A stretch of 64,000 bases of DNA from a virus (lineage: Duplodnaviria > Caudoviricetes). Under the pieces are notes generated by a model, which was given only the letters and a program-made list of their open reading frames with translations, ran no database searches and was not told the DNA's origin. Shown here in pieces: positions 11,960-37,131 of this stretch. The stretch covers positions 1 through 64,000 of IMG/VR virus record IMGVR_UViG_3300037067_019204; one strand, given 5' to 3'. The translations under genes and the position numbers were made by a program. Each line of letters begins with the position of its first letter. Position 1 is the stretch's first letter.

Positions 11960-12324
11960 CTCTCATTACATACGCCTATATAAGTTGCAACTTGTCGGCT
12001 ACAACAGACTAATCAGGTGTGGGCCACCTCTCATTACATACGCCTGTATAAGTTGCAACCTTATCATTTAAGAATCTTAAAACAGAGGTTCTTACTCTCA
12101 TTACATACGCCTGTATAAGTTGCAACCCTGTGGAAAAACCAGCGGGTGGAAAAGTGACCGCCTCTCATTACATACGCCTGTATAAGTTGCAACTGTAGAT
12201 AACCCACGTTCTCCGTACCAACAAAATCTCTCATTACATACGCCTGTATAAGTTGCAACTACACAGGATTTTTAGCACAAATGGGTATGATTCTCTCATT
12301 ACATACGCCTGTATAAGTTGCAAC
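11960..12324 (-). CRISPR. CRISPR array, 6 x 32-nt repeats GTTGCAACTTATACAGGCGTATGTAATGAGAG, 5 spacers of 33-36 nt
   Basis: Repeats start at 11960, 12028, 12095, 12162, 12228, 12293; the 11960 copy has one substitution (trailer end). Confidence 0.97.
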
Positions 12325-12382
12325 TGCCAGCGAATAAACACTGGAAATTCTAGTAGTTAACAAGAGTTTATCGCCAACCATC

Positions 12383-12485
12383 CTTATGTATCATATTAAG
12401 CGTAGTATCAGTGAGTGGGGTTAGCGAAGACCAATTGGGCTTCATTTTTGCTAACTCCCTCACCATTTTGCTGTGAGAACAGCAA
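12383..12485 (-). ncRNA. Predicted tracrRNA
   Basis: 5' hairpin TTGCTG-TTCTCA-CAGCAA whose loop pairs with repeat 3' end TGAGAG; long GTGAG..CTCAC stem; anti-repeat TAC-TACGCTT...ATAAG. Confidence 0.7.
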
Positions 12486-13775
12486 TATATCATTACTGAT
12501 ATAAGTATTTTCATTAATTTTTTCTTCTTCCTCCTCCAATTTACCTTTTTTTATAAATAGCTTACTATTAGCGATATTAATAGAAGCATTATAATCAGCA
12601 TTAGATTCATATCCACATTTTGTACATTTAAAATGAGCTTGATCTTTTCTATTATCTTTATCAATACTACCACATTTTGAACATTTTTGACTTGTATATG
12701 CAGGATTTATGTATTTTACTATTACTCCTATTTCTTTAGCTTTATACTCAATCATTTGCTGGAGTTGATAATAAGACCAATATGCTGTAAGAAATGCATT
12801 TTTCTTTACTTCACTTGTCAAAGCTTCCAGATGAATAGTTCCTGCATTATTTTTCATACAAAAATCTATTATTTGTTTACTCATTGTATGATTATATGTT
12901 TTTACAAAATTAGATTCTTTTTCCATCAGAGAATCTAAACAATCAAATTTTCTTTTTCTACCATGACCACCTTTTGTAGTAGTTTTTCGTTGTAATCGTC
13001 TACGTCTATTTTTTATTTGTGTTCTGAATTTTTGTATTTCAATAGAATCACCTATTGCTTTTCTATCCAATTCATTCTTTAGTCCACAATATGCCGGTAT
13101 TTTCCAACCCAAATCAATTCCACAAATTATATCCTTATCTAAAGATTTTAGATTAGGAGAAAAATTGTAACATAAATATAAATACCAGAACTTATCTTTT
13201 TTAATTATTCTTGAATCACTTAAACCATAATCATTGTTTAATATTTTATCAACAATATTTTTAACTGATTTATCTTTTTCTATTCCAGTAAATCCAAAAA
13301 TATAACCTTTTTTTCTTAATTCACTAGGATAAAAAACATATTCCCCATCTTGAACTTGAATTTCACTTTCTTTGGATTTAACCAAAATACTTAAATCTTT
13401 AAAATTAGGATAATCTATCTTACCAGTATTGTATTCAAATAATTCATTTTTAAACTTAGTTTCAACTTCCGTTTGAATCCAACTTGCCTGAGTTTCAGTC
13501 AAATATTTAGAAGATTCTCTAGTGGCCGTTAAAAAAGTTGAATATGTATGTTTTTTTCCTTTTTTATTAACTCTTTTTCCAATTGTTAAATCAATAGCAT
13601 GAGGATTTGTAGTATTTAAATAATTAAATAAGATACTTCTTTTAAGTGTATCATGACGTATATTTCTTGCTTCATAAGACATTTTTGTTAATAAATTATA
13701 AAGATTATTTCTTTTTTCTTGATCTTTTTCTATCAAAAATAATTTTATTTTACAAGTTTTAACTAAATTTCCCAT
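12408..13775 (-). CDS. cas12f: Type V-F effector Cas12f (TnpB-derived RuvC nuclease)
   Basis: RuvC-I GIDLG, GGHGRKRK, RuvC-II IHLE, CSKC/CTKC zinc finger, RuvC-III NADYNA; 455 aa; adjacent array. Confidence 0.88.
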   Translation of the reverse strand: MGNLVKTCKIKLFLIEKDQEKRNNLYNLLTKMSYEARNIRHDTLKRSILFNYLNTTNPHAIDLTIGKRVNKKGKKHTYSTFLTATRESSKYLTETQASWIQTEVETKFKNELFEYNTGKIDYPNFKDLSILVKSKESEIQVQDGEYVFYPSELRKKGYIFGFTGIEKDKSVKNIVDKILNNDYGLSDSRIIKKDKFWYLYLCYNFSPNLKSLDKDIICGIDLGWKIPAYCGLKNELDRKAIGDSIEIQKFRTQIKNRRRRLQRKTTTKGGHGRKRKFDCLDSLMEKESNFVKTYNHTMSKQIIDFCMKNNAGTIHLEALTSEVKKNAFLTAYWSYYQLQQMIEYKAKEIGVIVKYINPAYTSQKCSKCGSIDKDNRKDQAHFKCTKCGYESNADYNASINIANSKLFIKKGKLEEEEEKINENTYISNDILLFSQQNGEGVSKNEAQLVFANPTH

Positions 13776-32866: not shown

Positions 32867-34390
32867 TTATGCAATATCAATCCTTATATCATGCTTTTTA
32901 CAATATTTGTTGATTATGTGCCGATGATCTTTATTCTCAATACTTGTGTTTCTCTTTGCTCGTAATTGAATTACACGATTTTTTCTAATTTCCATATTGT
33001 ATAGTAATTCCCCACATTTTTTATCATATATGCCCAATAGTATGCATTCTTTAGTTCTATATCTATCTGAATAAGAAGCAATACAATTATGCATCATACT
33101 ACCCCAACTAGCTAAATCAGAGGGCTGGTGTGGAACAGTAAACTTTAATTCATCTATATCTTCTTCATATTTATGGAGATCTTCTATCTCATATGGTTTA
33201 TTCCTATCTTTCATCGTTATATAATTCTGTATTTTTGAAAAAGTATCATGCAAATGTTGTGGAGTAAAACATTTTTTTTCTTGTTTTAGTATTTCCATAT
33301 TTTTAAATTCATTATCTTTTTTTATTGTATGATACATCCTAAGTGTATCATAATTATGAGGATAATTCAAAAATGAATTAGATTTTTGTGTATATCCATA
33401 AGATATATCAGGAGACAATGATTCTCGTTTATCATCATCTCTCATTATAAAATCAGCTAATTTATTTTCTGATAATTCTTTTTTAACATCTTTAGCAAAC
33501 ACTTCAAAATGTTCTGGTAATAAAAATAAATTATTAACATGCTCATTATACTCATTACGAGCATTGTAATAATTAAGAATATGTTTTAAAACAGAGGTTT
33601 TTATATCAAGATTATCAAATTGTTTACAAATTATAGGGAGACGATAAAAATCAATTTTTTTGATTGGAGTATCTAATAAATTTCTAACAATAGATTTTTT
33701 GTATGGTAATTCCATAAAGTTAATTAAATCTTTTACAGTAGAAATTTCCATATCTTTAAATATTTCTCTGTGCTTGTCATATTTTAATGAATACAAAAAA
33801 TCAGAACTAAGTTTAAGAATGGGAAAATGATCATAAACCATATAAGCAAAAAATAAATTAACAGGTAATTCTTCCCCAAAAAGATATTCTGATATAGTTT
33901 TATAAATTCTATAGTATTGTTGTTCAAATAATTTAGCATTAGCACCTAATTTATATTTTGTGGCTTTGTATATAAAAGAAATAGGATTATCTACATCAAG
34001 ATAGTCCCAAAATTTAAAAGTTTCACTATCAGAAGATATAAAAGATTCAGGATCAAAAGAAAGAACAGAATTTTTTTCTTTTTTTTCTAGTTCATCTCCT
34101 TTAAATTTAAAGGAACTATTTTTATGAATAATAGAAGCAGATCTTTTATTATTTTCTTCATGTAATTCTAAAATTACTCTTTCAATTTGATCTGAAGCAG
34201 ATATATAAGATGTTGTATTACAATTAGAACAGGAATATAGTTTACTATTAGGAACTAATACTTCTGGAATAAAAAAAGTTTTTTGGCATTCAGTACAATA
34301 TACTGTACTTCCCAAAGAGCTACGTTTATTTCTATTTAAAATAAATAGTGGGATAACTTCTTTATTAACTGGAATAGATTCTATAAGCAT
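32867..34390 (-). CDS. PcfJ-domain protein
   Basis: VPHQPSDLASWGSMMHNCIASY...MEIR...IQLRAKRN. Confidence 0.75.
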   Translation of the reverse strand: MLIESIPVNKEVIPLFILNRNKRSSLGSTVYCTECQKTFFIPEVLVPNSKLYSCSNCNTTSYISASDQIERVILELHEENNKRSASIIHKNSSFKFKGDELEKKEKNSVLSFDPESFISSDSETFKFWDYLDVDNPISFIYKATKYKLGANAKLFEQQYYRIYKTISEYLFGEELPVNLFFAYMVYDHFPILKLSSDFLYSLKYDKHREIFKDMEISTVKDLINFMELPYKKSIVRNLLDTPIKKIDFYRLPIICKQFDNLDIKTSVLKHILNYYNARNEYNEHVNNLFLLPEHFEVFAKDVKKELSENKLADFIMRDDDKRESLSPDISYGYTQKSNSFLNYPHNYDTLRMYHTIKKDNEFKNMEILKQEKKCFTPQHLHDTFSKIQNYITMKDRNKPYEIEDLHKYEEDIDELKFTVPHQPSDLASWGSMMHNCIASYSDRYRTKECILLGIYDKKCGELLYNMEIRKNRVIQLRAKRNTSIENKDHRHIINKYCKKHDIRIDIA

Positions 34391-34396
34391 GTTAAG

Positions 34397-34825
34397 TTAC
34401 ATCATTTCATTTAATAATTCACGAACCTTCATTAAACTAATACCTAATTGATTTCTACCCACACCATTAATTTTTCCCCAATAATTGTCTACTGGGCTTG
34501 CTTCTTCAAGATAAGAATCTCCAGTAGCAATCAATTGTTCGGCAATATCTTTATTTTGCGTAAATTTGCATACTAACGCAAAAAGCATTATTTTATCTTT
34601 AACTTGATCCCAATCTTTTCTTAAAGCAATAATATTACCATTTTGTCTAGATAACTTAGGTGTAGGACTTTTTCTTATAAATTCATGGTCAGATTCTGTT
34701 TTTGCTTTATATGCTTGATAAAAATGTTCTGAGGTTGGATATAATTTACCATTACATATAATTTCAGATTTATAAAAATTAGACATAAATCCAAATTGCT
34801 CATTTGTTTTATAAAATTTTATCAT
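34397..34825 (-). CDS. NADAR (YbiA-like) family protein
   Basis: SNFY...SEHFYQAYK...KFTQN...LEEASP.DNYWG...GRNQLG. Confidence 0.9.
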   Translation of the reverse strand: MIKFYKTNEQFGFMSNFYKSEIICNGKLYPTSEHFYQAYKAKTESDHEFIRKSPTPKLSRQNGNIIALRKDWDQVKDKIMLFALVCKFTQNKDIAEQLIATGDSYLEEASPVDNYWGKINGVGRNQLGISLMKVRELLNEMM

Positions 34826-34860: not shown

Positions 34861-34932
34861 GAGGTAAAAAGTTTAAATCGTTGTTTTTTAGCTAATTTAG
34901 TTATAGTTGATAAACAATTTAATCCGTACCTC
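34861..34932 (-). ncRNA. Y-RNA-like gene 6 (compact), downstream of Ro60
   Basis: GAGGTA-CGGA-TTAAATTGT-TTATC...ACGATTTAA-ACTTTT-TACCTC. Confidence 0.7.
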
Positions 34933-34943
34933 TTTTTTTGTTT

Positions 34944-36560
34944 TTATAGTTTTCCCATACTAAATTGACTAATTATTTGTGGTGCGGCACTATCAAATCC
35001 TACTATATCCAATGAATTTGGATCTTGAGGATCTGCTATAGAAAATTCAGACCCAACCATTCCAACAACAATCATTTTAGCATCTTTAATCCTCTGGTTT
35101 CTATACTCATGCAAGGCTTGCATAGGATGCATCTTCCCAAACCAAGTTTCATTATCTGTATATGTAACAAATACATCAAAATCAAGTTTCCTATCTTTTG
35201 CCCATATCATTGGAACAGAGCAATCAGTTCCAGCAAAAGGAAGATTTCTCATTTTTTGAAGAGTTTGTCCCAATGTCATATCTGGAGTTATGTCCAAATT
35301 AACAAAATTTGTAGAAAAACCCATTACTTCATAATTTTGTTCTTTTCTTGCTGTAACCATAGCCATACAAGCACTAGCTTCACGACAAGTTAATATCCCC
35401 TGTGCTCCAGAAATATAACTATTTGTCATTGAACCAGATACATCTAGCCCAAGAAGATAACGTTTTCCTGTAGATTCAACATTTTTAAAACTTAAATAAA
35501 ACATTTCTTCAAGAGCATCCACAATTTTTTGAACAGGAACCCAAGAAAGTTTTCCTTTAATTCCATGACCCATTGAATATGTCTTCATGGCAATCAAGAT
35601 ATTCAAAGGATGCATTCTACTTTTTTCTACATGAGAAAGATCAGTTAATTTTTTTGTAACTAAATTAATCTCATCAAACTTACCTTTTGAAAGAATTTCT
35701 AAAGAGCTTAGTTTTCCGAGATTACGAACCAAAGCTCCTAAAGGCAAATCATCCAAAGCAGAATTCCATACTTTTGCACGATTCTTTAACTCTGTTGGCC
35801 ATGCTTCATGAGGAATCTTATATTCTTTTATAAGCTTGCAAGCATCTTTTTCAGAAGCGTTTTTAAGTTCTTCTACAGCTTTCAAAAGATTAAATCCTTC
35901 AGAAATCTCACCTTTAACTGCATATTTAAACAATGAATTATGCTTATCAGACACAGGTTTTACGTGCGCAGAACGAAGCACATCACGATGTGTCCATTGG
36001 TTATTTGAACCTTCTACAGTACGACCTTGATACTTGATCATTTGATATTCAAGTTTTTCTGGGGACATGCTATACCAATTAGCTATAGCACTACGCACTG
36101 AACGACCCCAACTTCTCATTGAATCCAAGTAATGCACAAACATAAACAAGTGTGTTCCTATACGGCATACTTTAGGAAGTGCTTGAACAATTTCTTTTTT
36201 AACATCAAAATCTTTGCATTGAGTAAACAATACTGCTAACAAATAGATTGCTTGATCATTTTTAGGTGCACGGCCCTCATCAGAAATTTTAACTATTGTT
36301 TCAAGAACACGCTTTGGGTTTTCATTAATACAAGCAATACAGTTTTCTATATTAGCTTTAGTCAAATCATGTTCTGAAACATAATATGTTCCACCCTCTG
36401 AAGAAAGGATAAGAAATCTTTCCAATCTTTTCCATTTGTCAATAATGAAGGTATAACCACCTGCATTATTCATAGCCATTTCTTTTTCACGACCCGGAAT
36501 GGGCTTATATTGAGGTGTTCTCTTGTTATTAATTTGATGTTTTGTGTAATTGATAGCCAT
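34944..36560 (-). CDS. rsr: Ro60/Rsr RNA-binding protein (TROVE + vWA)
   Basis: NNAGGY...LERFLILSSEGGTYY; WTHRDVLRSAH; ALVRNLG; MIDAS DVSGS; TDNET; GFDS. Confidence 0.95.
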   Translation of the reverse strand: MAINYTKHQINNKRTPQYKPIPGREKEMAMNNAGGYTFIIDKWKRLERFLILSSEGGTYYVSEHDLTKANIENCIACINENPKRVLETIVKISDEGRAPKNDQAIYLLAVLFTQCKDFDVKKEIVQALPKVCRIGTHLFMFVHYLDSMRSWGRSVRSAIANWYSMSPEKLEYQMIKYQGRTVEGSNNQWTHRDVLRSAHVKPVSDKHNSLFKYAVKGEISEGFNLLKAVEELKNASEKDACKLIKEYKIPHEAWPTELKNRAKVWNSALDDLPLGALVRNLGKLSSLEILSKGKFDEINLVTKKLTDLSHVEKSRMHPLNILIAMKTYSMGHGIKGKLSWVPVQKIVDALEEMFYLSFKNVESTGKRYLLGLDVSGSMTNSYISGAQGILTCREASACMAMVTARKEQNYEVMGFSTNFVNLDITPDMTLGQTLQKMRNLPFAGTDCSVPMIWAKDRKLDFDVFVTYTDNETWFGKMHPMQALHEYRNQRIKDAKMIVVGMVGSEFSIADPQDPNSLDIVGFDSAAPQIISQFSMGKL

Positions 36561-36580
36561 AGCTAATCTCCTTTTATAAA

Positions 36581-36649
36581 TTTAGGTCAAGTAGTTGTAA
36601 TGGAATTGCATCACCCAAATGTAGATAACCCATCACGTCCGTACCTAAA
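36581..36649 (-). ncRNA. Y-RNA-like gene 5 (compact)
   Basis: TTTAGGTACGGA-CGTGATGG-GTTATC...CCATTAC-AACTA-CTTGACCTAAA. Confidence 0.8.
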
Positions 36650-36655
36650 AACCTA

Positions 36656-36782
36656 TGGCCAAAGAGTTGGACTCGAACCAACGACCCACAGTTTCCAATG
36701 ATAACCCTATTCTCCGTGCATTTCTGCCAAGTTGTTGAAAAGGGAAATACAACTGCTGCTCTACCAACTGAGCTATCTTTGA
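36656..36782 (-). ncRNA. Y-RNA-like gene 4: tRNA body with Ro-binding helix in place of anticodon loop
   Basis: Canonical acceptor, D and T arms; insert ...CTTGGCA-GAAA-TGCACGGA-GAATAGGG-TTATC...; acceptor followed by CCA. Confidence 0.8.
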
Positions 36783-36790
36783 CATGCATA

Positions 36791-36870
36791 TTTGGTAAAT
36801 TTTTTTTGATCAGAAAGTTCTTTTCAGAACAACCAATTTCATGTTGATAACTGATCAAATCCGTACCAAA
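36791..36870 (-). ncRNA. Y-RNA-like gene 3 (compact)
   Basis: TTTGGTACGGA-TTTGATCAG-TTATC...CTGATCAAA...TTTACCAAA. Confidence 0.75.
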
Positions 36871-36873
36871 ATT

Positions 36874-36997
36874 TTCCGTGGGTTGGACTTGAACCAACGA
36901 CCCCTTCCTTACAATGGATAATCCTCTTTCATTCGTACATTACTGTCAAGTGGTGAAAAAGGAACTTTAAGTGCTCTACCAATTGAGCTACCACGGA
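36874..36997 (-). ncRNA. Y-RNA-like gene 2: tRNA body with Ro-binding helix in place of anticodon loop
   Basis: TCCGTGG/CCACGGA acceptor, canonical D and T arms; insert ...CTTGACA-GTAA-TGTACGAA-TGAAAGAGGA-TTATC... Confidence 0.8.
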
Positions 36998-37007
36998 ATA
37001 TATACTA

Positions 37008-37072
37008 CAGGTAAAATTTATACTATTCGGGGGGTATCTCTTGACTTGATAACCGAATAGAATCCGTACCTG
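37008..37072 (-). ncRNA. Y-RNA-like gene 1 (compact)
   Basis: CAGGTACGGA-TTCTATTCGG-TTATC...CCGAATAG...TTTACCTG; TTGACA box about 35 nt upstream. Confidence 0.75.
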
Positions 37073-37131
37073 ATATTTTCATATAATATAAATATTAAAT
37101 ACTTGTCAACAAAAAAATTATCAATAAAACA

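What the first reader, a model, noticed from the sequence alone, without database searches (positions are those of the whole stretch)
12194..12227. A CRISPR spacer that is a Y-RNA gene of the phage's own family
Seen: the spacer in crRNA sense is ATTTTGTT-GGTACGGA-GAACG-TGGGTTATCTACA; Y-RNA 5 (36620-36645) reads GGTACGGA-CGTGA-TGGGTTATCTACA. That is 21/26 ungapped identity, and all five mismatches fall in the stem that varies among the six local copies. The spacer's 5' 8 nt match only 4/8, so self-cleavage is unlikely. Inference: the spacer was acquired from the Ro60/Y-RNA locus of a related competing phage (or the host), implying that locus is widespread and is a target in phage-phage conflict. 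Regulatory partial self-binding is an alternative.
Basis: partly seen in the sequence, partly recalled or inferred. Interest (0 to 1): 0.85.

Follow-up and report, generated by a model that had tools for sequence, protein, structure and literature searches.

The report
Phage CRISPR spacer copied from Y-RNA gene
A large phage carries a miniature CRISPR-Cas12f locus, and one of its five spacers is clearly the front half of a Ro60-associated Y-RNA gene of the kind the phage itself encodes; it probably targets a rival phage, but no matching target was found in any database.

Summary
Window 12194-12227 is the second spacer, counted from the leader, of a six-repeat array. The array lies directly downstream of a 455-aa Cas12f-family effector in a fragment of a large phage (161 kb, about 65% complete).

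Read on the minus strand, the spacer has four parts: an 8-nt T-rich linker, GGTACGGA, the 9-nt 5' strand of a covarying helix (GAACGTGGG), and TTATCTACA. This is the 5' half of the Y RNAs that flank the phage's own Ro60 gene.

Every position shared with the phage's own copy (25/34) is conserved across this Y-RNA class. The mismatches lie in the linker and in the helix strand that differs in every gene.

The GGTACGGA form is seen mainly in the Ro60 loci closest to this phage, so the source was a foreign member of that clade.

No perfect or near-perfect protospacer was found in IMG/VR, JGI metagenomes, GTDB genomes, GenBank phages or PLSDB. The best match is 26/34.

Self-cleavage is unlikely in either array orientation.

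The likeliest reading is a guide against a competing Ro60/Y-RNA-bearing phage, which is a known kind of interviral CRISPR use. The target itself is unproven.

Earlier first-reader notes of this scan on the same genome describe the same Cas12f and Y-RNA loci.

The parts
12194..12227 (-). Spacer 2 of the array (34 nt). It consists of an 8-nt linker, GGTACGGA, the 5' strand of the variable upper helix (GAACGTGGG) and TTATCTACA, which together form the 5' half of a Ro60-type Y RNA.
11960..12324 (-). CRISPR array of six 32-nt repeats (GTTGCAAC...ATGAGAG in effector sense) and five spacers of 33-36 nt. The repeat farthest from the effector (11960-11991) carries one substitution.
   Evidence: Related repeats follow the effector gene in L011, L013 and L014.
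12408..13775 (-). Cas12f-family (TnpB-derived) effector of 455 aa. The RuvC acidic residues and the CxxC...CxxC zinc ribbon are present.
   Evidence: Pfam Cas12f1-like_TNB, E = 5.7e-25. PDB AsCas12f 8J3R, E = 5.8e-56, with GIDLG, HLE and NADYNA aligned. It is the only such gene in the 161 kb.
12325..12480 (-). Conserved leader, a tracrRNA/omega-RNA-like region that overlaps the last codons of the effector gene. It contains a GTGAG...GTTAGC / GCTAAC...CTCAC hairpin and a candidate anti-repeat.
   Evidence: Alignment of four loci shows paired changes in the hairpin. Function is inferred, not shown.
36585..36645 (-). It is the closest copy in the genome to the spacer (25/34).
   Evidence: Rfam sbRNA/Y-type model RF01656 scores 24.7 bits, below threshold. 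The upper helix pairs at 8/9 positions.
34944..36560 (-). Ro60 (Rsr) ortholog of 538 aa, with TROVE and Ro60-vWA domains.
   Evidence: Pfam vWA_Ro60 E = 1.8e-65 and TROVE E = 3.5e-35.
37010..37070 (-). Own Y RNA A, the first unit after the promoter-like TTGACA-N17-TATATT.
   Evidence: 9/10 pairs.
36794..36867 (-). Own Y RNA B.
   Evidence: RF01656 scores 25.8 bits, below threshold.
34863..34930 (-). Own Y RNA D, downstream of ro60. It ends in a run of T.
   Evidence: 9/9 pairs.
36658..36782 (-). tRNA-like element with a ~58-nt insert in the anticodon region. The insert contains a Y-like motif (GCACGGA...GGTTATC).
   Evidence: Rfam tRNA model, 44.2 bits. Sequence.
36874..36997 (-). Second tRNA-like element, with a ~62-nt insert that contains GTACGAA...GATTATC.
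   Evidence: Rfam tRNA model, 48.3 bits. Sequence.

Best explanation
The window belongs to a large phage that carries a minimal type V-F-like CRISPR locus. The locus has a 455-aa Cas12f-family nuclease, a conserved tracr/omega-like leader and a six-repeat array. It has no adaptation genes.

Spacer 2 was taken from the 5' edge of a Y-RNA gene in a foreign Ro60/Y-RNA locus of the same GGTACGGA clade as the phage's own. The most likely donor is a competing phage.

The crRNA, read as repeat then spacer in effector sense, would guide Cas12f to cut that rival's DNA at the junction between linker and Y RNA.

The phage's own Y-RNA genes are spared. They differ at 4 of the first 8 PAM-proximal positions, and they differ across the 5' strand of the upper helix. 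That helix changes from gene to gene through compensatory substitutions.

Shown: the array; the effector family and its intact catalytic motifs; the Y-RNA identity of the spacer; the class-wide conservation of the matching positions; the variability of the mismatching ones; and the co-occurrence of a close relative.

Inferred: the donor, the cleavage, the PAM and the ecological role.
For: 1. The locus is a CRISPR-Cas12f locus.
- The array is defined.
- The effector matches Pfam Cas12f1-like_TNB and AsCas12f structures at E about 1e-55, with the GIDLG, HLE and NADYNA motifs and the zinc ribbon aligned.
- Relatives at 56-83% identity keep a GTTGCAAC... repeat after a conserved leader.
- No Cas1 is present in the 161 kb. 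This is usual for huge-phage CRISPR loci (PMC7162821).

2. The spacer is a Y-RNA 5' half.
- It carries GGTACGGA-N5-TGGGTTATC in register.
- The same layout is seen in Y RNAs next to Ro60 genes in L004, L007, L009, L035, L036, L038, L046 and L133.
- The phage's own units resemble the Rfam sbRNA/Y consensus.

3. The mismatches sit in the 9-nt helix strand. This strand is different in every module, yet most modules keep 8-9 of 9 pairs.

4. Clade assignment. Among 80 IMG/VR Ro60 loci the 5' motif is GGGCCGAA, GGGCCGGA or GGGTCGAA in most. Full GGTACGGA modules occur only in the two nearest relatives.

5. A host origin has no support so far. The Y-RNA pattern found nothing Ro60-linked in one genome for each of 185,579 species.

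6. Rivals are present. A strain whose ro60 start region carries the same substitutions as L009 (Ro60 88% identical) co-occurs with this phage. Depths are about 20 versus 33 in a groundwater run and 5 versus 6.5 in a landfill run.

7. There is precedent for virus-borne arrays that target related viruses (PMC6858448; PMC7162821).
Against: - No protospacer was found. The 20-26-nt core is absent from IMG/VR, JGI metagenomes and GTDB genomes. The best match of any kind is 26/34.
- None of the other four spacers matched anything either, including two related 179-205-kb phages. There is thus no independent sign that this array targets relatives.
- The co-occurring L009-type strain is not the donor. 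Its copy matches only 24/34, and its 3' helix strand cannot pair with GAACGTGGG.
- Expression, processing, PAM and nuclease activity are untested.
- Array orientation rests on indirect evidence only: gene order, the degenerate distal repeat, G-U pairs in the repeat hairpin, and the tracr-like leader.
- About 35% of the phage genome is unseen, so a second target inside the same genome cannot be excluded.
Confidence: 0.5

Rival explanations
1. Relic spacer. The spacer was acquired long ago, or inherited by recombination of the array, from a Y-RNA gene that no longer exists in that form. It now has no functional target.
For: No target was found in any collection for this or any other spacer of the array. 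The locus has no adaptation genes. The upper-helix sequence turns over fast between relatives, so targets would decay quickly.
Against: The spacer is second from the leader, so it is not an old distal one. Five of the six repeats are identical. The array of the 83%-identical effector relative holds a different spacer, which implies continuing turnover. The databases hold very few close relatives of this phage, so absence of a hit is weak evidence.
Confidence: 0.17
2. The target is the host's or another mobile element's Ro60/Y-RNA locus. The phage would destroy or silence a cellular Y-RNA gene while supplying its own divergent Ro60 RNP. This would parallel huge phages that target a host gene and encode their own version.
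For: Huge-phage spacers that target host genes, paired with phage-encoded substitutes, have been described (PMC7162821). Ro60/Y RNA occurs in many bacteria (PMC4201824). The contigs with the best matches (L038, L035) are short, and their origin is unknown.
Against: The Y-RNA pattern with GGTACGGA, GGTTATC and CTTGACC gave only four hits in GTDB species genomes. None had a Ro60 gene in the fetched flanks, and in none was a complementary 3' helix strand apparent. The exact 22-mer core is absent there. Where the origin is known, the GGTACGGA form is seen in viral records.
Confidence: 0.12
3. Regulatory partial self-binding. The crRNA directs Cas12f to bind the phage's own Y-RNA or ro60 leader without cutting it, and so tunes its expression.
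For: There is 25/34 identity to the copy directly upstream of ro60. If the array were read from the + strand, the 13 PAM-proximal positions would match perfectly.
Against: In the favoured orientation 4 of the first 8 positions mismatch. In the other orientation five consecutive mismatches follow position 13. The catalytic motifs are intact, so this is not a 'dead' effector. All matching positions are explained by class conservation.
Confidence: 0.04
4. The real target is an unrelated phage. The first 20 nt of the guide match a protein-coding region of two 49-64-kb IMG/VR phages at 19 consecutive positions.
For: There is an exact 19-nt match covering spacer positions 2-20, which is the part a Cas12f guide would use.
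Against: About one 18-mer hit is expected by chance in a collection of this size (my estimate). The remaining 14 nt match at 2/14. The 5' flank is A-rich, whereas characterised Cas12f PAMs are T- or C-rich (abstract of PMC7229846). No other spacer matches those phages. This reading cannot explain the in-register Y-RNA motifs.
Confidence: 0.03
5. RNA mimic. The processed crRNA acts as a half-Y-RNA decoy that binds Ro60 or pairs with the 3' halves of Y RNAs.
For: The spacer has the same sense as the Y RNAs and contains the 5' strand of the Ro60-binding helix.
Against: Predicted folds of spacer plus flanking repeats show no Y-like helix and nothing different from the other spacers. The 3' strand needed for Ro60 binding is absent.
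Confidence: 0.02

Closest known systems
CRISPR loci of huge phages, including type V-F (Cas14/Cas12f) variants (Al-Shayeb et al. 2020, PMC7162821)
   Same: It is phage-borne. It has a compact array; six repeats is the reported median. It has no Cas1, Cas2 or Cas4. The effector has conserved catalytic residues. Spacers in such loci are proposed to hit competing phages or host genes.
   Different: Here a spacer derives from a non-coding Y-RNA gene, of a kind the phage itself carries. No target was found, whereas that study mapped some spacers to targets.
Virus-borne mini-CRISPR arrays in interviral conflicts (Medvedeva et al. 2019, PMC6858448)
   Same: It is a small array in a viral genome. It holds a spacer resembling a locus of closely related viruses, while the carrier's own copy differs. 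The proposed role is exclusion of relatives.
   Different: Those arrays are in archaeal viruses, have no effector of their own and rely on the host's type I machinery (my recollection of the paper; I read only title and abstract). This phage brings its own Cas12f-family nuclease.
AsCas12f / Un1Cas12f (type V-F effectors; PDB 8J3R, 8J12, 7WJU, 7C7L)
   Same: The RuvC and zinc-ribbon core aligns at E = 1e-36 to 1e-55. The size is similar (455 aa). A tracr-like conserved RNA region lies between the gene and the array.
   Different: Only the C-terminal ~235 residues align to AsCas12f, and the N-terminal half is divergent. PAM, tracrRNA and dimerisation are untested. The next-nearest relatives (44-45% identity) include at least one with no array after the gene.
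Bacterial and phage Ro60-Y RNA modules (YrlA, Chen et al. 2014, PMC4201824; Thermus phage phiLo Yrl1/Yrl2, PMC12135203)
   Same: The Y RNAs are encoded next to a Ro60 gene. A terminal helix carries a conserved CG(G/A)A strand. tRNA-like units are part of the locus.
   Different: The locus has four simple Y RNAs and two tRNA-like units, and its 5' motif (GGTACGGA) is seen mainly in this clade. The new point is that one such gene is represented in a CRISPR array.

Membership tests
Type V-F CRISPR-Cas12f | A small (about 400-700 aa) effector with a split RuvC domain carrying the D/E/D residues, plus a zinc-ribbon (TNB) insertion | tested here: met
   Pfam PF07282, E = 5.7e-25. phmmer against AsCas12f 8J3R, E = 5.8e-56, with GIDLG, HLE, NADYNA and CxxC...CxxC aligned. 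Equating these motifs with the catalytic residues relies on my memory of the AsCas12f literature.
Type V-F CRISPR-Cas12f | A CRISPR array adjacent to the effector gene, which distinguishes it from transposon TnpB | tested here: met
   Six repeats lie 84 nt downstream of the stop codon. Homologous repeats follow the gene in L011 (two repeats), L013 and L014. No TnpA hit among the four neighbouring ORFs scanned.
Type V-F CRISPR-Cas12f | A tracrRNA with an anti-repeat | tested here: inconclusive
   The conserved leader has a hairpin with paired changes between the window and L011. Duplex predictions picked different segments in different loci. No RNA data are available.
Type V-F CRISPR-Cas12f | PAM-dependent cleavage of double-stranded DNA, with the guide 3' of the repeat | not testable with these tools
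   With no protospacer found, no PAM can be derived. Orientation is inferred from gene order, the degenerate distal repeat and more stable repeat hairpins in effector sense in 3 of 4 loci.
Ro60-associated Y RNA (applied to the spacer's source and to the phage's own units) | Encoded next to a Ro60/TROVE gene | tested here: met
   The phage's own units flank ro60. The same module sits beside Ro60 in L004, L007, L009, L035, L036, L038, L046 and L133. For the spacer's source itself this cannot be tested.
Ro60-associated Y RNA (applied to the spacer's source and to the phage's own units) | A conserved terminal helix (5' ...CGGA, 3' ...CTTGACC) and an upper helix kept by compensatory change | tested here: met
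   8-9 of 9 pairs, with different sequences, in most of 21 modules. The modules match the Rfam sbRNA/Y-type consensus RF01656 at 24.7-25.8 bits, below the gathering score of 38. The spacer holds only the 5' strand, so its pairing partner is unknown.
Ro60-associated Y RNA (applied to the spacer's source and to the phage's own units) | Binding to Ro60 | not testable with these tools
   This needs co-purification or a gel-shift assay.
Virus-borne array used against related viruses | A spacer with a perfect or near-perfect protospacer in a related virus, while the carrier's own copy is mismatched | tested here: not met
   The own copy is mismatched (25/34). But no protospacer better than 26/34 was found in any collection. 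The reading is therefore 'works like', not a demonstrated member.

The most novel reading that the evidence does not exclude
Ro60/Y-RNA loci are a recurrent battleground between large phages. Phage-borne Cas12f arrays would aim at the Y-RNA genes of rivals. The fast, structure-preserving turnover of the Y-RNA upper helix and linker would then be driven partly by escape from such targeting. This would be the first case of a conserved non-coding RNP gene evolving under CRISPR pressure exerted by other viruses.
Probability: 0.1. Interest if true: 0.7.

Novelty: new member of a known kind. Interest (0 to 1): 0.4.

Why it matters
If the spacer does target a rival's Y-RNA gene, it would link two poorly understood features of large phages: their own miniature CRISPR systems and their Ro60/Y-RNA modules. 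It would also suggest that the Y-RNA locus is valuable enough to be worth attacking.

The locus also offers a compact 455-aa Cas12f relative with a natural array and a conserved tracr-like leader. That could be characterised biochemically.

As it stands, the finding is a well-supported sequence curiosity with an unproven target. It is not a new mechanism.

Tried and rejected
Protospacer searches that found nothing useful:
- BLAST of the spacer against GenBank phages gave only weak partial hits in Erwinia phages (E = 0.4).
- Exact core patterns of 20, 22 and 26 nt gave no hit in IMG/VR, JGI metagenomes or GTDB genomes.
- Degenerate patterns in IMG/VR gave nothing or 19 hits that form one unrelated coding family.
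- The whole array against GenBank phages gave no hit. Against PLSDB it gave two weak chance-level hits.
- The array against the full records of two related phages of 179 and 205 kb gave only partial spacer-2 matches: one at the Y RNA and one 15-nt match elsewhere in the 205-kb record.

Other searches:
- The repeat was not found in IMG/VR.
- The Ro60 single-protein scan of IMG/VR found no close relative.
- The contig of the closest Ro60 (P0002, 88%) could not be fetched. Its cluster mate L009 could.
- P0011 contigs were listed without DNA.

Read laying:
- Logan contigs show a second, L009-type strain in the same runs.
- No contig of that strain was laid over 36602-36663. This is a hole that proves nothing.
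- Its 3' helix strand (CATTAC) cannot pair with the spacer's GAACGTGGG, so I rejected it as the donor.

Decoy idea: folds of spacer plus repeats look like those of the other spacers.

tracr anti-repeat: RNAduplex picked inconsistent partners between loci, so I make no firm assignment.

Promoter scan: the number of sites is no higher than in shuffles. One 10/12 site lies at 12615-12588(-), inside the effector ORF.

Distant effector homologues (44-45% identity): one has no array after the gene, and the other contig ends too early to tell.

Full report
**Context.** The window is the first 64 kb of a 161,311-bp IMG/VR virus record that CheckV rates about 65% complete. It is AT-rich. It carries about 20 tRNA genes, all on the minus strand.

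**The CRISPR locus.**
- Six 32-nt direct repeats lie at 11960-12324.
- They separate five spacers of 33, 34, 35, 35 and 36 nt.
- Only the repeat farthest from the neighbouring gene (11960-11991) carries a substitution.
- The stop codon of a 455-aa ORF (12408-13775, minus strand) lies 84 nt from the other end of the array.
- That ORF matches Pfam Cas12f1-like_TNB (E = 5.7e-25).
- By sequence it also matches solved Cas12f structures: AsCas12f 8J3R (E = 5.8e-56) and Un1Cas12f 7C7L (E = 3.4e-36). The GIDLG, HLE and NADYNA motifs and both CxxC pairs are aligned.
- It is the only such gene in the record, and no Cas1 is present.
- Homologues at 83%, 60% and 56% identity (L011, L013, L014) are each followed, after a conserved ~100-nt leader, by a repeat that begins GTTGCAAC and ends ...ATGAG. 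L011 has two repeats and a different spacer.
- More distant homologues (44-45%) include one with no array after the gene.
- This is therefore a small CRISPR-associated branch of the TnpB/Cas12f radiation, carried by phages. Similar type V-F variants were reported for huge phages (PMC7162821).

**Orientation of the array.** Five lines of evidence favour transcription in effector (minus) sense, with each spacer 3' of its repeat:
- All genes in the region are on the minus strand.
- The degenerate repeat is the distal one.
- The leader overlaps the last codons of the effector gene. It contains a hairpin (GTGAG..GTTAGC / GCTAAC..CTCAC) with paired differences between the window and L011. This is the arrangement of TnpB omega-RNAs and Cas12f tracrRNAs, as far as I know from the literature.
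- Repeat hairpins are more stable in this sense in 3 of 4 loci, because of G-U pairs.
- My own manual pairing of a candidate anti-repeat with the repeat (not a tool result) also needs G-U pairs, which form only in this sense.

None of this is direct evidence. I put the orientation at about 85%.

**The observation.**
- In effector sense, spacer 2 (12194-12227) reads ATTTTGTT GGTACGGA GAACG TGGGTTATCTACA.
- The element at 36620-36645(-) reads GGTACGGA CGTGA TGGGTTATCTACA.
- That gives 21/26 identity, or 25/34 with the upstream 8 nt.
- One of 1000 shuffled spacers reached 25/34 anywhere in the genome. The other spacers reach 21-23 of their 33-36 nt.
- The match is in register with motifs that occur almost only at the Ro60 locus. 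GGTACGGA occurs five times in the window against 0.26 expected. GGTACGGA-N8-GTTATC occurs three times in 161 kb: in two Y RNAs and in the spacer.

**Are these Y RNAs?**
- ORF 34944-36560(-) is a Ro60 ortholog (vWA_Ro60 E = 1.8e-65, TROVE E = 3.5e-35).
- After a promoter-like site, the upstream region holds, on the minus strand, Y unit A (37070-37010), a tRNA-like unit, Y unit B (36867-36794), a second tRNA-like unit and Y unit C (36645-36585). The ro60 ribosome-binding site follows.
- Unit D (34930-34863) follows the gene.
- Units B and C align to the Rfam model of nematode stem-bulge RNAs, RF01656, at 25.8 and 24.7 bits. These RNAs are the nematode Y-RNA homologues (PMC4726728, abstract). The scores are below the gathering score of 38, but the alignment is full-length and the consensus reads GGUCCGGA...UGGGUUAUC...AACUUGACC.
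- The same module stands beside Ro60 genes in a 239-kb phage (L004, Ro60 68%), a 205-kb phage (L046, 57%), L009 (88%), L005 and L007 (64%), L133 (61%), L036 (54%), L035 (49%) and L038 (44%).
- In 21 modules, the 9-10 nt between GGTACGGA and TTATC differ from gene to gene. In most of them this strand still pairs at 8-9 positions with a segment just before the 3' ...CTTGACC.
- Phage Ro60 with Y RNAs is established biology (PMC4201824; PMC12135203).

**What the spacer is.**
- It is the 5' half of such a gene: linker, conserved 5' strand, the variable helix strand GAACGTGGG, and the conserved start of the loop.
- Every position it shares with the phage's own unit C is class-conserved. The 13-mer TGGGTTATCTACA recurs unchanged in L046.
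- Copies from distant loci match as well or better than the own copy: L038 26/34, with 7/8 in the linker; L007 25/34; L035 20/22 in the core.
- So the resemblance to the phage's own copy says 'same RNA class', not 'own copy'.
- The class can be narrowed. Among 80 IMG/VR Ro60 loci the 5' motif is GGGCCGAA (19 modules), GGGCCGGA (11) or GGGTCGAA (11). Full GGTACGGA modules occur only in the two nearest relatives. Outside IMG/VR they occur in the loci listed above.
- A pattern for this class (GGTACGGA, GGTTATC, CTTGACC) gave four hits in GTDB species genomes. None had a Ro60 gene in the fetched flanks, and in none did I see a complementary 3' strand.
- The donor was therefore most probably another Ro60-bearing element of the phage's own broad clade.

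**The search for the target failed.**
- The exact core is absent from IMG/VR (20 and 26 nt), JGI metagenomes (22 nt) and GTDB genomes (22 nt).
- Degenerate patterns retrieved only further Y RNAs with other helices or an unrelated gene family.
- GenBank phages and PLSDB gave nothing useful.
- An 18-mer from the guide end hit a coding region of two near-identical IMG/VR phages at 19 consecutive nt. About one such hit is expected by chance (my estimate). The rest of the spacer does not match, the flank is A-rich, and no other spacer hits those genomes.
- The other four spacers have no match anywhere I could look.

**Ecology.**
- The locus is held almost completely by a groundwater run, which may be the source sample, and by a landfill run from another study.
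- In both runs Logan contigs show a second strain at roughly 60-80% of the depth of the reference.
- Its substitutions around the ro60 start are those of L009, the relative with 88% identical Ro60 (compared).
- Close relatives thus share habitats with this phage, which is the premise of interviral exclusion.
- That particular strain is not the donor. Its unit C matches only 24/34, and its 3' helix strand cannot pair with the spacer's strand.

**Self-targeting.**
- In effector-sense orientation the phage's own copy mismatches at guide positions 1, 2, 6 and 8 and at 17-21.
- In the opposite orientation, 13 matching positions are followed by five consecutive mismatches.
- From what is known of Cas12-family seed requirements (general knowledge, not tested here), neither should permit cleavage.

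**Verdict.**
- The best reading (about 0.5) is a guide against a rival phage's Y-RNA locus, with the phage's own genes protected by divergence in the linker and the variable helix.
- The rivals are: a relic spacer (0.17), a host or other-element target (0.12), regulatory self-binding (0.04), the chance-level unrelated phage target (0.03) and an RNA decoy (0.02).
- This is a new member of a known kind: a compact phage-borne type V-F-like CRISPR locus with a spacer resembling a relative's locus (PMC7162821; PMC6858448).
- What is unusual is that the captured sequence is a Y-RNA gene. Interest is moderate until a protospacer is found.

Noticed in passing
G000:C1 about 103170-103600 (outside the window, minus strand): A second, unrelated mini-array lies here. 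It has four ~28-nt repeats (TAGAAGCCCTTACGCACAGGAAGACGGG) and three ~33-nt spacers. A structured region follows with an apparent anti-repeat (CCTGTGCGT...CTTCT) and a terminator. No effector is recognisable nearby.
   Followed up: partly
window 36480-37120 (runs X1 and X2): Two strains co-occur in a groundwater sample and in a landfill sample: the reference, and a variant about 10% divergent across the Y-RNA locus. The variant's substitutions at the ro60 start equal those of contig L009 (Ro60 88% identical).
   Followed up: partly
window 36658-36782 and 36874-36997 (-): Two tRNA-like genes in normal tRNA order score 44-48 bits on the tRNA model. Each carries a 58-62-nt insert in the anticodon region that contains a Y-like CG(G/A)A...TTATC motif. 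Relatives L004, L005, L007 and L009 have the same kind of unit. This differs from YrlA as I recall it from the literature, where the termini lie in the Ro-binding stem.
   Followed up: no
window 11960-12324 (-): Every repeat starts with the palindrome GTTGCAAC. In predicted pre-crRNA folds, the starts of neighbouring repeats pair with each other (8-10 bp) for three of the five units and bracket a repeat-spacer unit. This could be a processing site.
   Followed up: no
L045-L124 (IMG/VR Ro60 loci): The 5' strand of the Y-RNA terminal helix is clade-specific. GGGCCGAA, GGGCCGGA and GGGTCGAA dominate among 80 viral Ro60 loci. Full GGTACGGA modules occur only in the two loci nearest this phage.
   Followed up: partly
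window 34397-34825 and 32867-34390 (-); L009 2820-3251: A NADAR-domain gene follows ro60 and Y unit D both here and in the 88% relative. A PcfJ-like gene follows it here. The Ro60-Y RNA-NADAR linkage may be functional.
   Followed up: no
L005 4070-5291: In a Ro60 locus 64% identical to this one, an IS200/IS605 pair (Y1 TnpA plus TnpB) sits about 1.8 kb downstream of ro60. Transposon-type TnpB and CRISPR-type Cas12f relatives thus both occur in this group of phages.
   Followed up: no
contigs of P0011 (no DNA returned): A Ro60 locus 62% identical to this one has an Acb2/Tad1-hairpin-family gene (an anti-CBASS/Thoeris sponge family) about 1.3 kb upstream of ro60.
   Followed up: no
window 12588-12615 (-): The best sigma-70-like site near the array (TGGATA-16-TATAAT, 10/12) lies inside the effector ORF, about 110 nt upstream of the conserved leader hairpin. 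It is a candidate tracrRNA/pre-crRNA promoter, but site counts do not exceed those in shuffles.
   Followed up: no
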